From IMG/VR virus record IMGVR_UViG_2582581022_000009: DNA of 15,216 nt; one strand, given 5' to 3'. Below are positions 1 through 15,216 of the stretch, one piece after another (within the stretch, counting starts at the first letter, position 1; each line of letters opens with the position of its first letter). The notes beneath the pieces were generated by a model. The model did no database searches. It saw only the letters and a list, made by a program, of their open reading frames with translations, and was not told the origin of the DNA. The translations under genes were made by a program, and so were the position numbers. The stretch comes from a virus (Duplodnaviria > Heunggongvirae > Uroviricota > Caudoviricetes).

Positions 1-2
1 AC

Positions 3-779
3 CTTGCAGCCGGCAAGGCGCCCGTCAGCCACACTCACCCGTGGAGTCAGATAACGGGAGTGCCTGCTGCCTCGCTGACGGCAAAAGGCACCGTACAATT
101 GAGCAGTGCCATCAACAGCACGTCTGAAATACTGGCCGCCACACCGAAAGCGGTCAAGGCTGCATACGATCTGGCAAACGGAAAACAACCGGCAGATGCC
201 ACGCTCACTGCTCTGGCAGGACTTGCCACTGCAGCAGATCGGTTGCCTTATTTTACCGGAGCAGACCGCGCAGAGCTGGCAACCCTTACAGCTATTGGTC
301 GCGCTATTATCGCTAAGGGCAGTATAAAAGATGTCCTCAATTACCTTGGTTTGGGGGAAGGCTCGGCGCTGCCCGTTGGTGTACCTGTTCCGTGGCCCAC
401 TGCCACACCGCCAGCAGGCTGGTTACAGTGCAACGGAGCTACGTTCACCAAAGAACAATATCCTGTTCTGGCCAGAGTCTACCCGACCCTCCGTCTTCCC
501 GATTTGCGCGGTGAGTTTATCCGTGGATGGGACGACGGGCGAAAAGTGGATACAGGGCGCGATCTGCTTTCACGGCAGGATGGTACAAGTTTTTCTCATT
601 ACGCAGGTAATTTTGACATTGGGTCTGGTCATTCAATCAATAACTATGACCAAATCCTTGACAACCAACCTGGATTCTCCCGTTTTTCATTTGCAGGTCC
701 TTCGCGAGGCGATGGGGTTAATTATGTGACCATTCGTCCCCGTAACATTGCGTTTAATTACATCGTAAGGGCGGCATAG
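3..779 (+). CDS. Side tail fibre protein, C-terminal part (5' end outside window); constant region fused to variable cassette Sv1
   Basis: Frame is open from window start (codon phase 3) to TAG at 777-779; the GTG at 60 in the ORF track is not a real start. C-terminus ...RPRNIAFNYIVRAA. Gene context (invertase, tfa, alternative cassettes) is typical of Mu G-segment / e14 P-region fibres. Confidence 0.8.
   Translation, partial: LAAGKAPVSHTHPWSQITGVPAASLTAKGTVQLSSAINSTSEILAATPKAVKAAYDLANGKQPADATLTALAGLATAADRLPYFTGADRAELATLTAIGRAIIAKGSIKDVLNYLGLGEGSALPVGVPVPWPTATPPAGWLQCNGATFTKEQYPVLARVYPTLRLPDLRGEFIRGWDDGRKVDTGRDLLSRQDGTSFSHYAGNFDIGSGHSINNYDQILDNQPGFSRFSFAGPSRGDGVNYVTIRPRNIAFNYIVRAA
334..570 (+). 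repeat. Tail-fibre cassette 5' homology block, copy A, with putative 26-bp invertase crossover site at 334-359
   Basis: Encodes GLGEGSALPVGVPVPWPTATPPAGWLQCNGATFTKEQYPVLARVYPTLRLPDLRGEFIRGWD, repeated at 787 and inverted at 2387. Homology begins exactly at GGTTTGGGGGAA (348-359), preceded by TCCTCAATTACC-TT, resembling gix/hix 12-2-12 sites (AAACC-NN-GGTTT core). Confidence 0.55.
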
Positions 780-1009
780 AAACGTTGGTTTGGGGGAAGG
801 CTCTGCATTGCCTGTTGGTGTACCGGTTCCATGGCCCACCGCCACACCGCCAGCAGGCTGGTTACAGTGCAACGGAGCTACGTTCACCAAAGAACAATAT
901 CCTGTTCTGGCCAGAGTCTACCCGACCCTCCGTCTTCCCGATTTGCGCGGTGAGTTTATCCGTGGATGGGACGGTGGTCGCAAGGTTGATACCGGGCGTG
1001 CGCTACTTT
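773..1009 (+). repeat. Tail-fibre cassette 5' homology block, copy B (direct repeat of A), with putative crossover site at 773-798
   Basis: GGCATAGAAACG-TT-GGTTTGGGGGAA at 773-798, then ~135 bp near-identical to copy A (offset 439 bp); lies immediately after the Sv1 stop codon. Confidence 0.55.
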
Positions 1010-1251
1010 CATTTCAGGAAGGGACTATCGTATCCGGTTTTGATGATAATGATACCGGAGATATCAGTTCGCTCGGCTCTACACAATACGGATTTGGTGA
1101 CGCTTTAACCTCTAATCAACTGGGGGTCTTAAATGGCAAAAAGTGGATATTTGATGCATCCTCTAAAGGTGCACAAAGATATGACTGGTGGGCTTATGTA
1201 TCAGCTCGCCCCCGCAATATCGCATTTAACTATATCGTGAGGGCGGCGTGA
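790..1251 (+). CDS. Silent alternative tail-fibre variable C-terminal cassette (Sv2); no independent start
   Basis: ORF begins at the crossover block (TTG is an ORF-finder artefact), shares the N-terminal 70 aa and C-terminal RPRNIAFNYIVRAA with Sv1 but has a different central segment; in a different frame from the upstream fibre. Confidence 0.6.
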   Translation: MGEGSALPVGVPVPWPTATPPAGWLQCNGATFTKEQYPVLARVYPTLRLPDLRGEFIRGWDGGRKVDTGRALLSFQEGTIVSGFDDNDTGDISSLGSTQYGFGDALTSNQLGVLNGKKWIFDASSKGAQRYDWWAYVSARPRNIAFNYIVRAA

Positions 1252-1257
1252 TACCGT

Positions 1258-1872
1258 TCAGCCGGCAAGCGCCAGTGGCGCTTCCGGCCAGCTGATTTCA
1301 GGTGCCTTGCTGATATCCAGTGCGTTCAGCTCGTCGATATAATCCAGCACGGCGTTCAGTTTTGCCGTTTCTTCTGGTTTCAGACTGCGACCAGCACGCA
1401 GTTTGAGGTTGATAAGATCGACGGACGCCATCGCCTGTTTCACCCGTTGCTGGCGTTGCTGTCTGGCAACCTCCAGTTCTGCGGCTCGCTGCCGTTCAGT
1501 ATCGGTTACCCACGCCTCACCGTTCCAGGTATCCCATGGCGTGGCTGGCTGTTTTGTGGTGGTGTCCGCCGGGTAATCACCCGGTTGGGTAATCAGAACG
1601 GGGTTACCGTTCTCCGTGCTGTATACCGTCTCGCCGCGGTGATCAGGCACATGCTCCCACCCGTTCAGCGTGGCAGTCCGGCAAACCACGTAACCCGAAA
1701 TTGCTTCCGGCGGTGCATCGGCGCACGAATGTGCCGGAGTACCCACCCCAAGGGCGAGATACTCCACAGAGGATGAGGTGTATTCCCGGGTTTCCTCGTC
1801 ATAGTGATATACAGTGATATCGCCCGCTACAGTGGCGATACCGTTTTCATCCAGAACTGCAGTGTTACTCAT
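1258..1872 (-). CDS. tfa: Tail fibre assembly protein (Tfa / Mu U family)
   Basis: 204 aa starting MSNTAVLDENG...; ATG overlaps the TAA of the upstream Sv3 cassette (TAATG coupling); position between fibre cassette and convergent cassette matches G-segment architecture. Confidence 0.8.
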   Translation of the reverse strand: MSNTAVLDENGIATVAGDITVYHYDEETREYTSSSVEYLALGVGTPAHSCADAPPEAISGYVVCRTATLNGWEHVPDHRGETVYSTENGNPVLITQPGDYPADTTTKQPATPWDTWNGEAWVTDTERQRAAELEVARQQRQQRVKQAMASVDLINLKLRAGRSLKPEETAKLNAVLDYIDELNALDISKAPEISWPEAPLALAG

Positions 1873-2402
1873 TAAACTGCCCTCACAATGTAATTAAGTG
1901 CAATGCTACGGGGTCTGACAGTGATACCCTTCGCATACCCGCTTCTGATAGAGGTCAGAATAGTAGCCTGCATACCATTGTCTGACATTGCCACGACAGG
2001 ATCGCTGAATGTTGTCCCGTCCGGCATTTTAAAGCTGCCCTCACGAAGGTCTGTAATGGAATCTTCATTGTTGAATCCCATGCCGACTATCCCCGAGGTT
2101 CCCGTAGTGTCCTGGTTATAATAATCCAGCATTGCTGTTCTTAACAGCGTTGCCCCTTGTGCGGACAGCAACTTACGTCCTGTATCAACTTTGCGCCCGT
2201 CGTCCCATCCACGGATAAACTCACCGCGTAAATCGGGAAGACGGAGGGTCGGGTAGACTCTGGCCAGAACAGGATATTGTTCTTTTGTAAAGGCGCGCCC
2301 GTCGCACTTTAACCAGCCTGCTGGCGGTGTGGCGGTGGGCCACGGAACAGGCACACCAACGGGTAGCGCCGAGCCTTCTCCTAAACCACGTTTATCTCTC
2401 AA
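1872..2402 (-). CDS. Alternative tail-fibre variable C-terminal cassette (Sv3), inverted orientation, currently not fused to the constant region
   Basis: Shares the conserved junction block and C-terminal RPRSIALNYIVRAV with Sv1/Sv2, with a unique middle; the only cassette followed in cis by tfa. Confidence 0.65.
   Translation of the reverse strand: MRDKRGLGEGSALPVGVPVPWPTATPPAGWLKCDGRAFTKEQYPVLARVYPTLRLPDLRGEFIRGWDDGRKVDTGRKLLSAQGATLLRTAMLDYYNQDTTGTSGIVGMGFNNEDSITDLREGSFKMPDGTTFSDPVVAMSDNGMQATILTSIRSGYAKGITVRPRSIALNYIVRAV
2165..2401 (-). repeat. Tail-fibre cassette 5' homology block, copy C (inverted), with putative crossover site at 2376-2401
   Basis: Minus strand reads TGAGAGATAAAC-GT-GGTTTAGGAGAA then the same GLGEGSALPVGVPVPWPTATPPAGWL... 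coding block; inverted relative to A and B and adjacent to the invertase gene. Confidence 0.55.
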
Positions 2403-2454
2403 ATCCTCCCCACATTATCTCAGTACTTTAACCACTCAAAAGGGAGTATTTTTA

Positions 2455-3027
2455 ATGCTGATTGGCTACATACGTGTGTCAACAAATGACCAAAACACAG
2501 ATTTGCAACGCAATGCATTAATGTGCGCAGGATGTGAACAGATTTTTGAGGACAAAATGAGCGGAACCAAGTCGGAACGACCAGGCCTGAAACGCGCTTT
2601 AAAGTGCCTTAAAAGAGGGGATACATTGGTGGTCTGGAAGCTGGATCGGTTGGGTAGAAGAATGAAACACCTCATTGCTCTCACAGAAGAGCTACGCGCA
2701 AAAGGTGTCAATTTTCGCAGTCTGACGGATTCAATCGATACCAGCACTCCGATGGGAAGGTTCTTTTTTCATATGATGGGTGCACTGGCAGAAATGGAGC
2801 GTGAACTGATAGTTGAGCGCACGCTGGCTGGACTGGCTGCTGCGCGAGCACAAGGAAGAGTTGGAGGACGTCGCCCGAAACTGACGAAGGAGCAGCATGA
2901 GCAGATCGCAAGATTGCTCCAGAAAGGGTATGACAGAAAGCGGCTGGCAATTATCTATGATATTGGACTGTCAACGATCTACCGCTATCACCCTGTTGGG
3001 ACTGTCATAACGCAACCTGAAATGTAA
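2455..3027 (+). CDS. pin: Site-specific DNA invertase, serine recombinase (Pin/Gin/Cin/Hin family)
   Basis: 190 aa MLIGYIRVSTNDQNTDLQRNALMCAGCEQIFEDKMSG...GRRPKLTKEQHEQIARLL: resolvase/invertase catalytic N-domain with active-site Ser in VST and C-terminal HTH. True ATG at 2455 with AGGGAG RBS (ORF track start 2329 is upstream in-frame read-through). C-terminal ~25 aa differ from my recollection of K-12 PinE. Confidence 0.9.
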   Translation: MLIGYIRVSTNDQNTDLQRNALMCAGCEQIFEDKMSGTKSERPGLKRALKCLKRGDTLVVWKLDRLGRRMKHLIALTEELRAKGVNFRSLTDSIDTSTPMGRFFFHMMGALAEMERELIVERTLAGLAAARAQGRVGGRRPKLTKEQHEQIARLLQKGYDRKRLAIIYDIGLSTIYRYHPVGTVITQPEM

Positions 3028-3182
3028 TTCTTTTTCAAATAATGAAACGCCGCGTGGATGCCATTTATCGCACAAGATAGAGTGCATTTATCGCGCGGCG
3101 CATCACCTTTTGTTGATCCACTCAAATCGGCGGTGGCAATCATGAGTTGCTCACGAACAAACTGTAAATACTGGTTATTCAT
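2988..3182 (-). CDS. Small hypothetical protein (64 aa), translationally coupled to rusA; possibly a remnant at a deletion junction
   Basis: ATG overlaps the rusA stop as ATGA (3179-3182); 3' end overlaps the pin 3' end by 40 nt (convergent). No recognisable domain. Confidence 0.35.
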   Translation of the reverse strand: MNNQYLQFVREQLMIATADLSGSTKGDAPRDKCTLSCAINGIHAAFHYLKKNYISGCVMTVPTG

Positions 3183-3538
3183 GCATACTCCAGTTCTGTG
3201 ATTTTTATCCCCAACCGCCCACCAGGAACAAGCTGACCGCGCACAATATTAATTTCATCAAACTGCTCGTCGTCTATGAGCAGCCCCGCATGCGTCAGTA
3301 CATCCAGTGGTGCCTTCAGGATATTGTCCAGGTCACGACGGCGCTTATCCGGTGGCTCTGCAATAATTTCTATTGCCGGCCTTCCGGACAGGTTTAATTT
3401 CAGTTGCTGCTGGCGAACAATAAGCGCCACATCACGGCGATAACGCTCACCGACTTTTGATACAAAATATGTGCTGCCACGGCGTCGCCAGTAAGTGTTC
3501 ACCGTCGGCGGGTAAGGTAAAACCAAATCTATGAGCAT
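3179..3538 (-). CDS. rusA: Holliday junction resolvase RusA
   Basis: 119 aa with ...PPDKRRRDLDNILKAPLDVLTHAGLLIDDEQ..., matching the RusA catalytic Asp cluster (DRRRRDLDN...DD.Q in E. coli RusA); GAGGTG RBS; nin-region position. Confidence 0.8.
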   Translation of the reverse strand: MLIDLVLPYPPTVNTYWRRRGSTYFVSKVGERYRRDVALIVRQQQLKLNLSGRPAIEIIAEPPDKRRRDLDNILKAPLDVLTHAGLLIDDEQFDEINIVRGQLVPGGRLGIKITELEYA

Positions 3539-3550
3539 CAGTCACCTCTT

Positions 3551-4600
3551 TTACCCAAGCACGCCAGTTGCAAAGGCGTGATCAAGAAAACGAAAAATTA
3601 AATCAACCTGAGAACCATGCTTTTCTTCGAACGCCAGCGGATCCGCATGAAGCTCGTTGTGATGCTCCCGACACAGCGGTAGCGTGAAAATATCGTGAGA
3701 TTTTGTCCCCATTCCGCCCTGACCATGACCAATCAGGTGATGGGGATCGTCGGCTGGCTTACCACAACACGCACACGGCTGTGTCTTCACCCAGCGTGTG
3801 TATTTCTCGTTAACCCAGCGGCGACGTTTAGGTCGTTTCATGAAAGATTCCGGAGACTCAGGATCAACGGCAATGCTGACCACCGTCTTTTCCTGTGGTG
3901 GGTTCTGTTGCTGGTGGGCGTGAGGCAGCGGCGCAAGATTTTTTGTGCGCTGTTTCAGTATGCTGGTGGAGGTCTGCTCTCCCGGTACGATGTCGCTTTC
4001 ACGGTACATTGAGCGGATTTTTTCCGCACGCAACCCCAGCGAACGACGTAATACCGCTTCCGGTAGCGCGTCCGCCACCTGATTGCGGACCGCCCACCAG
4101 GATAATTCAGCCAGCGATAATTCCCGTTCCTGCGAGCCATTCATTGCATGGCGTATGACGTCAATCATCCATGCAGACAGGTTTTGGTGAGCAAGTTGCC
4201 CGAGTGATTCGGAGGTCTGGTCGCGCAGCTGGTTGTCGCAGTGCCAGCACAACACCATTGCGCCGGTACCATAACGGTGAATGACGGTTTCACTGTGGTG
4301 ATAATCACCGTGTGGCCACTGGCAGGATTTAACATGGCGCAGTAACCAATCAGACAATGCGCCAGCGCCACCAGCAGCACGAATCACTCGTTCGTCGCTG
4401 AAAAATGGCAGTAATGATTTATCCTCCGCCAGCGGCTGGCGAACGGCAGGAACGACCCCGGACGGCAGATTACGCATGCTTTTCGGTTCCGGCTCCACCA
4501 GTACCCGGGTATTGTGGAATACCGGCATGGATTCACGGCCCGGCTTAACGATCACCAGCCCGAGTTCCGGTACCAGAACAGGTCGAAGTAATACCCGCAC
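3551..4600 (-). CDS. DUF968-family (YdfU-like) lambdoid nin-region protein with C-terminal HNH-like Cys/His motif
   Basis: 349 aa; C-terminus RPKRRRWVNEKYTRWVKTQPCACCGKPADDPHHLIGHGQGGMGTKSHDIFTLPLCREHHNELH. GTG start with GGAGG RBS; upstream stop adjacent to start (operon coupling). Confidence 0.7.
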   Translation of the reverse strand: MRVLLRPVLVPELGLVIVKPGRESMPVFHNTRVLVEPEPKSMRNLPSGVVPAVRQPLAEDKSLLPFFSDERVIRAAGGAGALSDWLLRHVKSCQWPHGDYHHSETVIHRYGTGAMVLCWHCDNQLRDQTSESLGQLAHQNLSAWMIDVIRHAMNGSQERELSLAELSWWAVRNQVADALPEAVLRRSLGLRAEKIRSMYRESDIVPGEQTSTSILKQRTKNLAPLPHAHQQQNPPQEKTVVSIAVDPESPESFMKRPKRRRWVNEKYTRWVKTQPCACCGKPADDPHHLIGHGQGGMGTKSHDIFTLPLCREHHNELHADPLAFEEKHGSQVDLIFRFLDHAFATGVLG

Positions 4601-4601
4601 G

Positions 4602-4874
4602 TTACCTCCAGATGCGTTGCTGGAATGTGCGGGACGGACGCGGTGGGCGTTCGGAATAAGGGAGTCTGACGTAGATTATCCAGTGACGATAATCGAGGGT
4701 GAGGGCTTTCCTAAACTCATATCCACGTCTGCGGTAGTTATGAATCAGCCATTCGGCCTGTTCTTCAGTACAGGGATCGTGCTGATACCAGTCATATTTG
4801 AATGCGTGAGAACGCCACCCGTGCCTGCTGGCAAAGGCAGAATCAGAATTGCGAAATTTGAAATTATGCGCCAT
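4602..4874 (-). CDS. Hypothetical phage protein (about 90 aa)
   Basis: ORF MAHNFKFRNSDSAFASRHGWRSHAFKYDWYQHDPCTEEQAEWLIHNYRRRGYEFRK...; GGAG RBS 7 nt upstream of ATG at 4874; stop abuts the start of the DUF968 gene. Confidence 0.5.
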   Translation of the reverse strand: MAHNFKFRNSDSAFASRHGWRSHAFKYDWYQHDPCTEEQAEWLIHNYRRRGYEFRKALTLDYRHWIIYVRLPYSERPPRPSRTFQQRIWR

Positions 4875-4933
4875 TGTCATCTCCAATGGCGCTGCAGGTT
4901 GCCAGTTGTTCAGGCTGGCTCACGTATTATAAC

Positions 4934-5107
4934 TTATTCCCGAACTACCTTGAAACCGAGTCTTTCCAAGTATTCAATGAATGCCTCAACAGATAACACT
5001 ACATGATCATCAGGAATTAACGCTGTGTAGGTAATACCCCCATTCTCAACGCGCACAGCATAGAGGCCATCTTCACTAAAAATTTCACGTAATTCTTCGA
5101 TTTTCAT
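4934..5107 (-). CDS. Small hypothetical protein (57 aa; alternative start at 5155 gives 73 aa), in a Rem-like position
   Basis: MKIEELREIFSEDGLYAVRVENGGITYTALIPDDHVVLSVEAFIEYLERLGFKVVRE; GGAAGGA RBS before ATG 5107; AGGGAG before ATG 5155 as well. Confidence 0.45.
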   Translation of the reverse strand: MKIEELREIFSEDGLYAVRVENGGITYTALIPDDHVVLSVEAFIEYLERLGFKVVRE

Positions 5108-5226
5108 CAACAGAATCCTTCCAGATAAATAGCACTCCCCCTGTTCGGGGTCCATCCCTCTTCTCCCTGCGCGCTACTTAAGTATTTTTGATTCTATTCT
5201 GGCACCGTCCAAAACTTCAAACACGT

Positions 5227-5260
5227 TGAAAATAAAAACAAAAAACCCGCCGAAGCGGGT
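5227..5260 (-). terminator. Rho-independent terminator (minus strand) downstream of the HTH-peptidase gene
   Basis: Hairpin ACCCGC-cgaa-GCGGGT (5245-5260) followed on the minus strand by TTTTTTGTTTTTATTTT. Confidence 0.6.
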
Positions 5261-5264
5261 ATAC

Positions 5265-6368
5265 TCAAACAATCTGGAAAATATTTCTTGGATTTGTAAT
5301 AGGTCTGTTGATGGAGAACAACTCACGAATTAAATCTTGGCTCAAGCCAGTTTTCATAAGAATTCTTAGCCAGGTTGCATCATCCAGCATTTCAATCGCC
5401 TCGGCCAGCATGCCGGGTTCTTCAGGGCGCAAAAGTTCATCACCAGGTTCAACTCTCGTATACCCTCTGGAATTAAGATGCATATAGCCAGTTCTTGCCT
5501 GTTCCTGGGTCAATAAGCCTAATGCGCTGGCTCGATAAATACACATTTTAAGGCTGATTTTCCATCTAAGTTTAAATTCAACCAGAGCATTCCAGTCGAA
5601 TTGCTTACCTCGTATTCGTGGAAATTCTTTAATGAAAGATAACCTGGGAACTAATAAGGCGCTCGAAAAGTGATCGGCTTGTGATTCCGTAAGTTTATCA
5701 CCTGTCGTTATGCCCTCATGCATTACTAAATGCCCTAATTCATGACCTAAATCAGAGCGAAATCTACATATGCTTTTTTTAACATTGTTCCTGATGATAA
5801 CAGGCCTGTTATTGTGAACAGTAAAAGCATCAACACGATCATCGACTCCCGTAACATGCGCAACGATTACCCCTAAACTCTCCGCCAATTTAACCATTGA
5901 TGATATAGGGCCAAGACCTAAATTCCAGGCACGGCGACAATCTTCTGCCACTCGCTCAATATCATTCGGAGTAAGTAATTCAGCCCCTGGGTGCTCCGGT
6001 ATGTTAACGTCAGGAAATTCGATTTCACCTTCAACAGCAGAAATTATAATATTAAGAATCTCAGCCCTGGCCAATACACTATTAGTCAGCGTTTGAGTCC
6101 TGGACTTCTTACTCCGAAAATGGCAGACATCACTTTCCAGAGCGTATTTTCGTTCAGTAAAAAGAAAACTGGACTTAATCATAAGCGCTGAAGATATTAA
6201 CTCAAGACATTGCTCCGATGGCCTGCACCCCTTCTCCAGTTTGCTAACGAATTGCTTTGTCTTGCCAATTTTTTCGGCTAACTCTTCACAAGAAAGCCCA
6301 ACAGCCATTCTCGCTAGTTTGAGCTTATCACCCCGATACTCAGTGAAGTTATTCACCTGATGTTCCAT
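5265..6368 (-). CDS. Fusion protein: N-terminal XRE-family HTH + ImmA/IrrE-type (M78, COG2856-like) zinc metallopeptidase domain
   Basis: HTH: LKLARMAVGLSCEELAEKIGKTKQFVSKLEKGCRPSEQCLELISSAL; peptidase motif HEXXH as SDLGHELGHLVMHEG (HELGH, as in IrrE/ImmA). Overlaps the upstream gene by ~20 nt; sampled 60-bp stretches are ~30-35% GC versus >50% in flanks. Confidence 0.75.
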   Translation of the reverse strand: MEHQVNNFTEYRGDKLKLARMAVGLSCEELAEKIGKTKQFVSKLEKGCRPSEQCLELISSALMIKSSFLFTERKYALESDVCHFRSKKSRTQTLTNSVLARAEILNIIISAVEGEIEFPDVNIPEHPGAELLTPNDIERVAEDCRRAWNLGLGPISSMVKLAESLGVIVAHVTGVDDRVDAFTVHNNRPVIIRNNVKKSICRFRSDLGHELGHLVMHEGITTGDKLTESQADHFSSALLVPRLSFIKEFPRIRGKQFDWNALVEFKLRWKISLKMCIYRASALGLLTQEQARTGYMHLNSRGYTRVEPGDELLRPEEPGMLAEAIEMLDDATWLRILMKTGLSQDLIRELFSINRPITNPRNIFQIV

Positions 6369-6999
6369 CACTGCTCACATCCAAATCTTTATCCTTCGTA
6401 CGCCGACGAAGAGGCACCTTATTAATCTCCGCTTCGTCAGGGAGTGTGTTATAATCAAGAGGCATAAGCGGCATCGATGCTGTAGATTGATGAGAAACTA
6501 TACTAATCTGAGCACCATAAGTATTAAATCCAACAAGAGCTACCTCCCAACGAGGCAGTGTGGACTCTAATTCACCATCGCCCTCTTCGGATAAAAAAGG
6601 CTCAGCTATGACTCGCCATGTAATATCTTGCTCAGCCTCAACATCACCAAACAATGAGAGCTGCTCATACTCTACTTTATTTCGACGCAGACGATGTTTC
6701 TTTTTGGGGTTATTAATGCAATCTTTGGTAAATTGTAGCGGAACTTTATTTAAAGCAACTACATAGTCCAACCCCTTGGAAATCATCTCAAGGCCAGGAA
6801 TTGCATCTTCATTTTGAATAAGATGATTTCTGACCCAATCATAAGCCCTTACACCTTCAGACCAGTTGCTGTCTAATGCGTGCTTATGATAGTACAGCTG
6901 CTCAAGTACGTTAGCGATCTCCGCCAACAAGTGGCGAACATAGTTTTCAGCAAGATAAGGTTGAAATTCCCAACAAGGAGCTAACTGATTTTCATTCAT
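6349..6999 (-). CDS. Hypothetical protein (216 aa), first gene of the AT-rich cassette; no recognisable domain
   Basis: MNENQLAPCWEFQPYLAENYVRHLL...; basic patch KKKHRLRRNK mid-protein, acidic C-terminus; co-oriented and overlapping with the HTH-peptidase gene. Confidence 0.6.
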   Translation of the reverse strand: MNENQLAPCWEFQPYLAENYVRHLLAEIANVLEQLYYHKHALDSNWSEGVRAYDWVRNHLIQNEDAIPGLEMISKGLDYVVALNKVPLQFTKDCINNPKKKHRLRRNKVEYEQLSLFGDVEAEQDITWRVIAEPFLSEEGDGELESTLPRWEVALVGFNTYGAQISIVSHQSTASMPLMPLDYNTLPDEAEINKVPLRRRTKDKDLDVSSDGTSGE

Positions 7000-7034
7000 T
7001 TCAAGTTTCGCTTTTTTTAGAATTCGTAAACCAC

Positions 7035-7063
7035 ATATTTTCGCATTTTTCTATTTTTGTCAA
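7035..7063 (-). promoter_or_regulatory. Putative sigma70 promoter for the two-gene cassette
   Basis: Minus strand: TTGACA (7063-7058), 17-bp spacer, AAATAT, about 35 nt upstream of the 6999 start codon. Confidence 0.35.
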
Positions 7064-7071
7064 CCAGACTA

Positions 7072-14223: not shown

Positions 14224-14352
14224 ATGGATTTCGACACAATCATGGAAAAGGCTTACGAAGAATACTTCGATGGTCTTGCCGAAGGCGAAGAAGCTCTCAG
14301 CTTCAGTGAATTTAAACAGGCGCTTTCCAGTTCGGGAAAATCTAACGGCTGA
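14224..14352 (+). CDS. Small hypothetical protein (42 aa), not in the supplied ORF track
   Basis: ATG 1 nt after the preceding stop; MDFDTIMEKAYEEYFDGLAEGEEALSFSEFKQALSSSGKSNG; RBS-like GGTGAG upstream. Confidence 0.45.
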   Translation: MDFDTIMEKAYEEYFDGLAEGEEALSFSEFKQALSSSGKSNG

Positions 14353-14381
14353 TAAGCGAAACAGCACCGCGAGGAATCAGT

Positions 14382-14600
14382 ATGCAGAAACGAGAACCCG
14401 TCATCATCGCGCCAGACTATACCGATGATGAACTTTATGAGTGGATGCGCCAGAAAATTAATGCAGTGCAGGATCTGAAATGGGCCAATGAAGCCAGGAC
14501 TAAGCAGGCTGAAAATCTGTCCGCTCTGGAGCAGGATATCACCAGGCTGGAAAAAGCAGCGGCATTAAGCATTGCCAGAATGGTTACATACCCACGTTAA
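14382..14600 (+). CDS. Hypothetical early protein (72 aa)
   Basis: GAGGAA RBS 7 nt upstream; MQKREPVIIAPDYTDDELYEWMRQKINAVQDLKWANEARTKQAENLSALEQDITRLEKAAALSIARMVTYPR. Confidence 0.55.
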   Translation: MQKREPVIIAPDYTDDELYEWMRQKINAVQDLKWANEARTKQAENLSALEQDITRLEKAAALSIARMVTYPR

Positions 14601-14622
14601 TAGCTAACCAACGAGGCTAATA

Positions 14623-15024
14623 ATGGAATTTAAAGATTTACCAATGCCATTCCAGGAAATGGCAGCGAATGTGATTCGCTCTCAACTGGCGACTCTTGAC
14701 CTGAGTACTGTAGAAAAGGAAACCATCGATACTATATCCGGTAACGTGCGTCGTGCCTTTATAGGTCTGTATGAAGAGAAGCGCCTATTCGGCGGACAGA
14801 ATTCGCCTGAAAACAAGAATCAAGCAAATGATGAGAAGCTGAAACACATTATCGCCTTACTTTTGGAAGACGCAAAACGTCTACAGCAACTGGAACCAAA
14901 TGCAGGCACAGAGGCCCGCATTTGGATTGCCATGAAATCACTCAAATGTGAAAGCAGTGATTATTTCAAAACAACAATTAAAACTACTCAACTTTCGGGA
15001 GAGCTACTGAAGAAATTGCCATAA
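14623..15024 (+). CDS. Hypothetical early protein (133 aa)
   Basis: ACGAGG RBS upstream of ATG 14623; no recognisable domain. Confidence 0.55.
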   Translation: MEFKDLPMPFQEMAANVIRSQLATLDLSTVEKETIDTISGNVRRAFIGLYEEKRLFGGQNSPENKNQANDEKLKHIIALLLEDAKRLQQLEPNAGTEARIWIAMKSLKCESSDYFKTTIKTTQLSGELLKKLP

Positions 15025-15216
15025 GAGCATGGTCTTTCTCTTGTTCTGCAAGATGAGCATTAATACCTGGTATGGTTTTTTCAAATTTATCTATCTGTTG
15101 AATAACAACTTCGCGGTATACGTTTGTTTTTGTACCACCAAGCGCAGCCGTTAATGCAGAAAGCATATTTAGTATCATATCAGTGCGATATGAAAGAATC
15201 CTGATAGCTTCATCTT

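What the first reader, a model, noticed from the sequence alone, without database searches (positions are those of the whole stretch)
2988..3182. Invertase abuts the nin region: Q antiterminator, lysis and morphogenesis genes missing, with an orphan small ORF at the junction
RusA (3179-3538) is separated from the convergent pin gene only by a 64-aa ORF that overlaps the pin 3' end by 40 nt. In intact lambdoid phages rusA is followed by Q, lysis, terminase, head and tail genes before the tail fibre. This suggests a large internal deletion and a cryptic, non-inducible prophage. The 64-aa ORF may be the N-terminal stub of a truncated gene such as Q, and the unusual pin C-terminus may also reflect the junction.
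Basis: inference. Interest (0 to 1): 0.45.

Follow-up and report, generated by a model that had tools for sequence, protein, structure and literature searches.

The report
Transposable phage inserted into prophage Q gene
The invertase/RusA junction is not a deletion scar: it is the exact right end of a Mu-like (BcepMu-type) transposable prophage that jumped into codon 26 of the Q antiterminator gene of a resident lambdoid prophage, which is an ordinary event.

Summary
The anatomy is as described: invertase (2455-3027, +), convergent rusA (3179-3538, -), and a 64-aa ORF between them (2988-3182, -). The deletion interpretation is wrong.

- **Left side.** Window 1-3105 is the last 3,105 bp of a ~37-kb BcepMu-like transposable myophage. 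It is 99.6-99.7% identical to a prophage of ST131 strains, which is 100% identical over its 12.6-kb early half to phage PhiKM.
- **The terminus.** Homology stops at 3105 (...GCGCGGCGCATCA) in five independent insertions (ycaL, gspL, zraS, malE, a P1/D6-like plasmid).
- **Right side.** From 3106 the sequence is the first 77 nt of Q, then rusA and DUF968, of an ompW-type lambdoid prophage. It is 99.6% identical to E2348/69, where Q is intact.
- **The ORF.** It is Q residues 1-26 fused to 38 read-through residues.
- **The invertase.** It is 190/190 identical to the copy in strain 4/4 and is not affected by the junction.
- **Source.** The window is a whole 15.2-kb Velvet contig of EPEC S6995, so the other phage end lies off-contig.
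- **The rest of Q.** A 194-aa Q starting at M36, with the exact E2348/69 sequence, occurs on one 35.5-kb NCBI contig. This suggests the rest of Q survives.

The event is ordinary, and the lambdoid prophage is probably defective because Q is disrupted.

The parts
1..779 (+). 3' part of the tail-fibre gene of the BcepMu-like prophage. It runs off the left contig edge.
   Evidence: Phage_fiber_2 and Collar domains. The gene call runs to the contig end. Window 1-3105 is 100% covered at 99.6-99.7% by the ST131-type prophage.
334..359 (-). gix/cix-like crossover site A (TTCCCCCAAACCAAGGTAATTGAGGA)
   Evidence: Lies at the edge of inverted repeat I1. Sequence read.
773..798 (-). gix/cix-like crossover site B (TTCCCCCAAACCAACGTTTCTATGCC)
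   Evidence: Lies at the edge of inverted repeat I2. Sequence read.
790..1251 (+). Alternative tail-fibre C-terminal segment
   Evidence: Collar domain. Member of direct repeat D1.
1258..1872 (-). Tail-fibre assembly protein
   Evidence: PF02413 Caudo_TAP, E 5.6e-27
1872..2402 (-). Alternative tail-fibre C-terminal segment in inverted orientation
   Evidence: Collar domain. Arm of inverted repeats I1 and I2.
2376..2401 (+). gix/cix-like crossover site C (TTCTCCTAAACCACGTTTATCTCTCA)
2455..3027 (+). Gin-family serine DNA invertase, 190 aa, intact
   Evidence: Resolvase and HTH_7 domains. Mu Gin structures 4M6F and 3UJ3, E about 1e-93. 190/190 identical to WP_000904922.1 of strain 4/4.
3028..3105 (.). 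Right terminus of the transposable phage. It carries two CATTTATC repeats (3062-3069 and 3085-3092) and the terminal ...CATCA-3'.
   Evidence: Five independent insertions share sequence up to 3105 and diverge after it. The spacing and sequence pattern match both ends of BcepMu.
3106..3111 (.). Target hexamer CCTTTT (Q nt 72-77). This is the predicted copy of a 6-bp target-site duplication.
   Evidence: Three relatives show 6-bp duplications: GAAGAA, CCCAGG and TCTTCG. The second copy lies off-contig, so this is inferred.
3106..3182 (-). First 77 nt (codons 1-26) of the lambdoid Q antiterminator gene
   Evidence: Matches E2348/69 Q from exactly 3106. 26/26 aa identical.
2988..3182 (-). Chimeric 64-aa ORF: Q residues 1-26 plus 38 read-through residues. 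The read-through crosses the phage end and runs antisense to the invertase 3' end.
   Evidence: It is a singleton in a collection of about 15 billion proteins.
3179..3538 (-). rusA
   Evidence: PF05866. RefSeq annotation of relatives.
3551..4600 (-). DUF968 (YdfU-like) nin-region gene
   Evidence: PF06147, E 7.5e-77
3106..15216 (-). Early and nin region of an ompW-type (PPompW-like) lambdoid prophage. It is collinear with ML35 apart from an IS2-like insertion.
   Evidence: 89% coverage at 99.5% in 25 genomes. The ML35 map runs int-xis...Q-lysis-terminase-head-tail next to ompW.

Best explanation
A ~37-kb BcepMu-like transposable (Mu-type) temperate myophage transposed into the Q antiterminator gene of a resident ompW-type lambdoid prophage in EPEC isolate S6995. 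Its DDE transposase joined the phage's invertase-side terminus (...GCGCGGCGCATCA, window 3105) to Q after nucleotide 77.

Shown:
- The last 3,105 bp of the transposable phage are in the window: tail-fibre 3' end, multi-site invertible segment, Gin-like invertase, and a 78-bp terminus with two transposase-site-like repeats.
- These abut Q codons 1-26, rusA and the rest of the nin and early region.
- The 64-aa ORF is an accidental fusion of Q(1-26) to read-through sequence.
- It keeps Q's native translational coupling to rusA.

Inferred:
- The other (Mor-side) phage end, a second copy of the hexamer CCTTTT, the remaining 613 nt of Q and the lambdoid late genes lie about 34 kb further left, on other contigs.
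- Splitting Q leaves the lambdoid prophage unable to antiterminate its late operon, so it is defective for lysis and virion production.
- The transposable phage itself may be intact.
For: 1. Window 1-3105 matches the chromosomal prophage of ST131 strains (JJ1886, 4/4 and others) and EcPF7 in one piece, with 100% coverage at 99.6-99.7%. Every match ends at 3105.
2. In strain 4/4 that prophage is 37,045 bp. It carries an rve/DDE transposase, an ExeA/MuB-like ATPase, Gam, Mor, a Mu-type portal and F-like and G-like proteins, and a P2-type tail. Its early and late arms diverge, as in BcepMu.
3. Its 12.6-kb early half (L003 26000-38597) is 100% identical to Escherichia phage PhiKM. Its transposase is 68% identical to those of BcepMu and phiE255.
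4. In alignment A1 the window and five independent insertions (ycaL, gspL, zraS, malE, plasmid pGF60-C) are identical up to ...GCGCATCA and unrelated immediately after. Host genes are split at the insertion point.
5. Three insertions where both ends were read have 6-bp target duplications.
6. The termini share TGA..G....G.GATA..T, twice and at the same spacing, with both ends of BcepMu.
7. From 3106 the window is 99.6% identical to E2348/69 Q-rusA-DUF968, starting at Q nt 77. Q is intact (690 nt) in E2348/69, which serves as the empty site.
8. The source, S6995, is an O127 isolate of the EPEC1 lineage, the same lineage as E2348/69.
9. The product a gene caller would give for the displaced 3' part of Q (M36 to the end, 194 aa, exact E2348/69 sequence) exists in the protein collection. 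It is on a single NCBI contig of 35,543 bp. That is close to my estimate for the rest of the phage plus Q' (33.9 kb + 0.6 kb + a short tail; the arithmetic is inference).
Against: The partner junction was not seen. The window is the whole contig, and the 35.5-kb contig could not be retrieved, so its assignment to S6995 is inferred. The target duplication and the survival of the late genes are therefore untested for this insertion. Transposable phages can also create adjacent deletions or inversions through intramolecular replicative transposition, and this junction alone cannot exclude that.
Confidence: 0.85

Rival explanations
1. The transposable-phage end is joined to Q, but with an accompanying rearrangement. 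Intramolecular replicative transposition, or later recombination between phage copies, deleted or inverted the DNA between an earlier phage site and Q. The rest of Q and the lambdoid late genes would then be lost or relocated.
For: The junction is equally compatible with this. Adjacent deletions and inversions are established outcomes of Mu-type replicative transposition (textbook knowledge of Mu). Only one phage end is visible in the contig.
Against: A 5'-truncated Q product with the exact E2348/69 sequence exists on one 35.5-kb NCBI contig. This argues that the 3' part of Q was not deleted. All three relatives examined are simple insertions with 6-bp duplications.
Confidence: 0.1
2. One reading: one lambdoid prophage suffered a large internal deletion from Q to the tail genes. 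This brought its own tail-fibre/pin module next to rusA, as in cryptic K-12 prophages.
For: No Q body, lysis or head genes are in the window. K-12 cryptic prophages do carry pin-type invertases next to remnants (general knowledge).
Against: The left block is 99.6-99.7% identical to the terminal 3.1 kb of a BcepMu-like phage and stops at its last base. It is convergent with the nin genes, which a simple deletion within a collinear late operon cannot produce. Intact relatives of the lambdoid (ML35) have lambda-type siphovirus tail genes rather than this P2/Mu-type module.
Confidence: 0.02
3. Assembly artefact: Velvet mis-joined two unrelated loci at 3105/3106.
For: The source is a short-read Velvet draft with many contigs.
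Against: A misjoin needs a shared repeat at the joint, and none exists. The flanks are unrelated on either side of a single base step. The step also coincides exactly with a genuine transposon terminus, which is what a real insertion predicts.
Confidence: 0.03

Closest known systems
Burkholderia phage BcepMu (Bcepmuvirus) and its enterobacterial relatives (Escherichia phage PhiKM PQ738613, Klebsiella phage KP12, the ST131 prophage between aroA and ycaL)
   Same: - rve/DDE transposase, 68% identical to that of BcepMu. The early half of the ST131 prophage is 100% identical to PhiKM.
- Mor at one end, with early and late arms diverging.
- P2-type contractile tail.
- Termini TGA...TCA with two subterminal GATA(A/T)(A/T)T repeats at the same spacing.
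- Insertion at unrelated sites inside genes.
   Different: BcepMu ends with an acyltransferase gene after the tail fibre. The E. coli phage ends with an invertible tail-fibre segment and a Gin-like invertase. The window holds only its last 3.1 kb.
Phage Mu insertional mutagenesis (Mu G segment and Gin)
   Same: A transposable temperate phage inactivates a gene by inserting into it. A Gin-family invertase and an invertible tail-fibre segment lie next to the right end. The invertase matches the Mu Gin structures at E about 1e-93.
   Different: Mu makes 5-bp duplications, has collinear early and late genes, and carries com/mom beyond gin. This phage shows 6-bp duplications, has divergent arms, and has nothing beyond the invertase except a 78-bp terminus.
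Cryptic K-12 prophages with pin genes (e14 pin, Rac pinR, Qin pinQ)
   Same: A pin-type invertase and tail-fibre fragments sit beside lambdoid early genes in a defective prophage.
   Different: Here the invertase module is not a remnant of the lambdoid prophage. It is the end of a second phage of full-length type, and the join is a transposition junction rather than a deletion scar.

Membership tests
BcepMu-like transposable phage (right terminus) | The sequence is collinear with, and ends at, the terminal base of a phage that encodes a DDE transposase, a MuB-like ATPase and Mor | tested here: met
   Window 1-3105 is 100% covered at 99.6-99.7% by the ST131-type prophage, with all matches ending at 3105. 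The transposase is 68% identical to that of BcepMu.
BcepMu-like transposable phage (right terminus) | Terminal TG...CA with subterminal transposase-binding-type repeats like those of BcepMu | tested here: met
   Alignment A2 has invariant TGA, G, G.GATA..T and G.G.GATA..T at the same spacing in the window end, two E. coli Mor-side ends and both BcepMu ends. Transposase binding was not tested.
BcepMu-like transposable phage (right terminus) | Insertion at many unrelated sites, with a short target-site duplication | tested here: met
   Insertions in ycaL, gspL, zraS, malE and a plasmid. 6-bp duplications GAAGAA, CCCAGG and TCTTCG.
BcepMu-like transposable phage (right terminus) | This particular insertion has the second end and a duplicated CCTTTT | not testable with these tools
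   The other end lies outside the contig. Junction searches in genome contigs and viral contigs found nothing. The contig carrying the 194-aa Q' could not be fetched.
Phage antitermination protein Q (PF06323) | A full-length Q domain of about 220 residues | tested here: not met
   Only residues 4-27 match profile positions 1-24 of 220. The score is 19.7 bits, below the 25-bit cut-off. Identity to Q stops after residue 26. The ORF is a fragment of a Q gene, not a Q protein.
Gin/Pin/Cin/Hin DNA invertases | A serine-recombinase catalytic domain plus a C-terminal HTH, about 190 aa, next to an invertible segment bounded by inverted crossover sites | tested here: met
   PF00239 at 9e-51 and PF02796 at 1e-12. 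Mu Gin structures at E about 1e-93. Inverted repeats and three gix/cix-like sites. Inversion activity was not tested.
   The module belongs to a different phage. It is convergent with rusA and Q. Intact relatives of the lambdoid have a lambda-type tail.

The most novel reading that the evidence does not exclude
The insertion may not be a random hit. BcepMu-like transposable phages might preferentially land in, and so silence, the late-gene regulator of resident lambdoid prophages, as a form of inter-prophage competition. Alternatively, the new arrangement might couple the two phages. Induction of the lambdoid pR transcript would read through rusA and the Q stub into the transposable phage's end, antisense to its invertase. 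That could alter tail-fibre switching. My evidence shows one such insertion among insertions in many unrelated genes, so it neither supports nor excludes this.
Probability: 0.04. Interest if true: 0.45.

Novelty: already known. Interest (0 to 1): 0.15.

Why it matters
The practical value is for annotation. A prophage caller, or a reader, would merge two phages into one odd "cryptic" prophage and infer a deletion that did not happen. Recognising the exact terminus (...GCGCGGCGCATCA) and the 6-bp duplication of this common E. coli transposable phage allows clean delimitation of nested prophages. For strain biology, it predicts that the ompW-type lambdoid prophage of EPEC S6995 cannot complete a lytic cycle because Q is split, while the transposable phage may still be active. 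Nothing here challenges current understanding.

Tried and rejected
- **Junction searches.** An exact 45-mer across the junction found nothing in genome contigs or viral contigs. The predicted partner junction also found nothing in viral contigs. The source is a draft EPEC assembly that these collections do not hold.
- **Complete E. coli genomes.** None of the 5,426 carries the junction: 0 places covered at least 80% of window 2300-3700.
- **N-terminally truncated Q among cluster representatives.** The shorter representatives checked (P0002, P0012, P0080, P0082, P0106) are C-terminal truncations. P0026 and P0083 lack the first ~13 residues but have full-length-type bodies. None starts near M36.
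- **Exact look-up of guessed partner products.** The M36-start form with the E2348/69 sequence is present (P0122, one contig of 35,543 bp), but the look-up of encoding contigs has no position record for it. Guessed longer forms are not in the collection: MYLKSNQKG..., MSDQKG..., MSNQKG..., MIYLKSNQKG... and the M36 form of a second Q allele.
- **Literature.** A search for PhiKM returned only unrelated phiKMV and phikm18p papers. The KS10 paper gave no BcepMu duplication length.
- **P1-type cin module.** I considered that the left block might be a P1-type cin module, because P1/D6-like plasmids match up to window 3117. I rejected this. The 12 extra bases are a chance partial match after the same terminal CA. 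Chromosomal BcepMu-like prophages match the whole 3,105 bp better.
- **Promoter and terminator scan of 2900-3300.** Nothing above background.

Full report
**Observation.**
- A DNA invertase gene ends at 3027 on the + strand. Its real start is 2455, giving 190 aa with Resolvase and HTH_7 domains.
- rusA is at 3179-3538 on the - strand.
- A 64-aa ORF at 2988-3182 (-) lies between them. It overlaps the invertase 3' end by 40 nt and the rusA stop by the 4-nt ATGA.
- The window contains no Q body, no lysis genes and no lambdoid morphogenesis genes.

**What lies to the left of the junction.**
- A megablast of 2300-3700 against 5,426 complete E. coli genomes found no genome that spans the junction. 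The left-hand matches all stopped at about window 3105, and the sequence beyond them differed between genomes: aroA/ycaL, gspL, zraS, malE.
- The whole of window 1-3105 matches, in one piece and at 99.6-99.7%, a prophage of ST131 strains (JJ1886, 4/4 and others) and of EcPF7. The match always ends at 3105.
- In strain 4/4 this prophage is 37,045 bp. It encodes an rve/DDE transposase, an ExeA/MuB-like ATPase, Gam, GemA and Mor, Mu-type portal and F-like and G-like morphogenesis proteins, and a P2-type contractile tail. After the tail come the invertible tail-fibre segment and the invertase.
- Its early arm and late arm diverge from a central repressor region, exactly as in Burkholderia phage BcepMu.
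- Its 12.6-kb early half (L003 26000-38597) is 100% identical to Escherichia phage PhiKM. Its transposase is 93% identical to that of Klebsiella phage KP12 and 68% identical to those of BcepMu and phiE255.

**The terminus.**
- In alignment A1 the window and five independent insertions (ycaL, gspL, zraS, malE, and the P1/D6-like plasmid pGF60-C) are identical through ...CATTTATCGCGCGGCGCATCA. They are unrelated from the next base on.
- Both ends were read for three insertions. Each is a simple insertion inside a gene with a 6-bp target duplication: GAAGAA in ycaL, CCCAGG in gspL, and TCTTCG in zraS.
- Read inward, the two ends of the E. coli phage and the two ends of BcepMu share TGA..G....G.GATA..T, followed by a second G.G.GATA..T at the same spacing.
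- Window 3028-3105 is therefore a genuine transposable-phage terminus, with two transposase-site-like repeats at 3062-3069 and 3085-3092.

**What lies to the right of the junction.**
- From exactly 3106 the window is 99.6% identical to E2348/69 over Q(5' end)-rusA-DUF968.
- In E2348/69 Q is an intact 690-nt gene that overlaps rusA by ATGA. Only its first 77 nt are present in the window.
- The rest of the window (3106-15216) is collinear at 99.5% with the early region of an ompW-integrated lambdoid prophage found in 25 complete genomes. The only difference is an IS2-like insertion.
- In ML35 that prophage continues past Q into tRNAs, lysis genes, terminase, portal, head and a lambda-type tail. 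This shows what an uninterrupted relative looks like. It also shows that the lambdoid's own tail module is unrelated to the P2/Mu-type module in the window.

**The 64-aa ORF and the invertase.**
- The ORF's first 26 residues are 26/26 identical to Q. The other 38 come from reading through the phage terminus and the antisense strand of the invertase 3' end.
- Pfam sees only Q profile positions 1-24, below threshold.
- The exact protein is a singleton among about 15 billion sequences. It is a junction artefact, not a conserved small gene.
- The invertase is 190/190 identical to the copy in strain 4/4. It aligns to Mu Gin over residues 1-181 of 193. Its C-terminus has nothing to do with the junction, which lies 78 nt beyond its stop codon.

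**Source and the missing half.**
- The window is the entire contig JICH01000084.1 of GCA_000691085.1.
- That assembly is typical EPEC isolate S6995 (O127), a Velvet draft. The isolate belongs to the EPEC1 lineage together with E2348/69.
- The left contig edge falls inside the tail-fibre gene, so the rest of the transposable phage and whatever follows it cannot be seen.
- I predicted the product a gene caller would give for the displaced 3' part of Q: the first canonical start is M36, giving 194 aa with the E2348/69 sequence. That exact protein is in the collection, from NCBI, on one single contig of 35,543 bp.
- That length is close to my estimate for the remaining 33.9 kb of phage plus 0.6 kb of Q' plus a short tail (inference).
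- The contig could not be fetched, and guesses for longer start variants failed. The partner junction therefore remains inferred.

**Mechanism.**
- Shown: the phage terminus is joined to Q after nt 77. Relatives of this phage insert by transposition with 6-bp duplications.
- Inferred: the DDE transposase inserted the whole ~37-kb phage into Q and duplicated CCTTTT (AAAAGG in the Q sense). Q is split, so the lambdoid prophage cannot antiterminate its late operon and is defective.
- I put about 0.95 on the core claim that this is a transposition junction of a BcepMu-like phage in Q.
- I put about 0.8-0.85 on it being a simple insertion with the rest of Q and the late genes still present beyond the phage.
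- The main rival is a transposition-associated adjacent deletion or inversion (about 0.1).

**Novelty.** Gene disruption by a transposable phage is textbook, and nested prophages are a known kind of arrangement. The phage is essentially identical to a widespread, already deposited one. The finding is ordinary. Its value is in correcting the annotation: two phages rather than one deleted prophage.

Noticed in passing
L008 (pGF60-C, NZ_CP172188.1) about 3001-3810; corresponds to window 2300-3105: P1/D6-like phage-plasmids carry the same invertase and the BcepMu-like terminus up to its very last base. D6-like sequence (holin side, overlapping the end of D6's own invertase gene) begins immediately after it. 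This looks like a fossil of a transposition into the plasmid, followed by recombination in the tail-fibre genes. That would mean a host-range module was captured between unrelated phage types.
   Followed up: partly
window 334-359 (-), 773-798 (-), 2376-2401 (+): There are three gix/cix-like crossover sites: two in direct orientation and one inverted. They bound three alternative tail-fibre C-terminal segments that share a ~230-nt repeat. This is a multi-site inversion system rather than a simple two-site G-segment.
   Followed up: partly
window 5265-6999 (-): Two overlapping genes in the lambdoid nin region match the PADLOC RmrA model (HTH plus M78 peptidase, E 6e-105) and the RmrT model (E 5e-25). 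They form a candidate toxin-antitoxin-type defence pair. They are also present in ML35 but absent at this position in E2348/69.
   Followed up: partly
window about 8300-9600 (+): An IS2-like (IS3 family) element lies between QueH and DUF977 of the lambdoid prophage. It has orfA at 8326-8754 and orfB at 8712-9593. It is absent from the closest complete relatives and accounts for the 11% of the query they do not cover. Its exact ends were not determined.
   Followed up: partly
L003 38557-38597 (Mor-side end of the strain 4/4 prophage): The last ~40 nt of the Mor-side end contain an open frame reading outward into the flanking DNA. In strain 4/4, RefSeq annotates the disrupted ycaL as starting at an ATT inside the phage end. 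In isolate 131 the end variant ...CTCATGTCTGATCA supplies an in-frame ATG. Insertions in the right frame could therefore re-express the downstream part of the target gene as a fusion.
   Followed up: no
window 1 and 15216 (contig edges): The window is a complete Velvet contig. Its left edge falls inside the tail-fibre gene, which is repeat-rich and invertible. Its right edge falls in the lambdoid early region, around the point matching ML35 locus position 29757, between ydfC and dicB. Absence of genes beyond either edge carries no information.
   Followed up: yes
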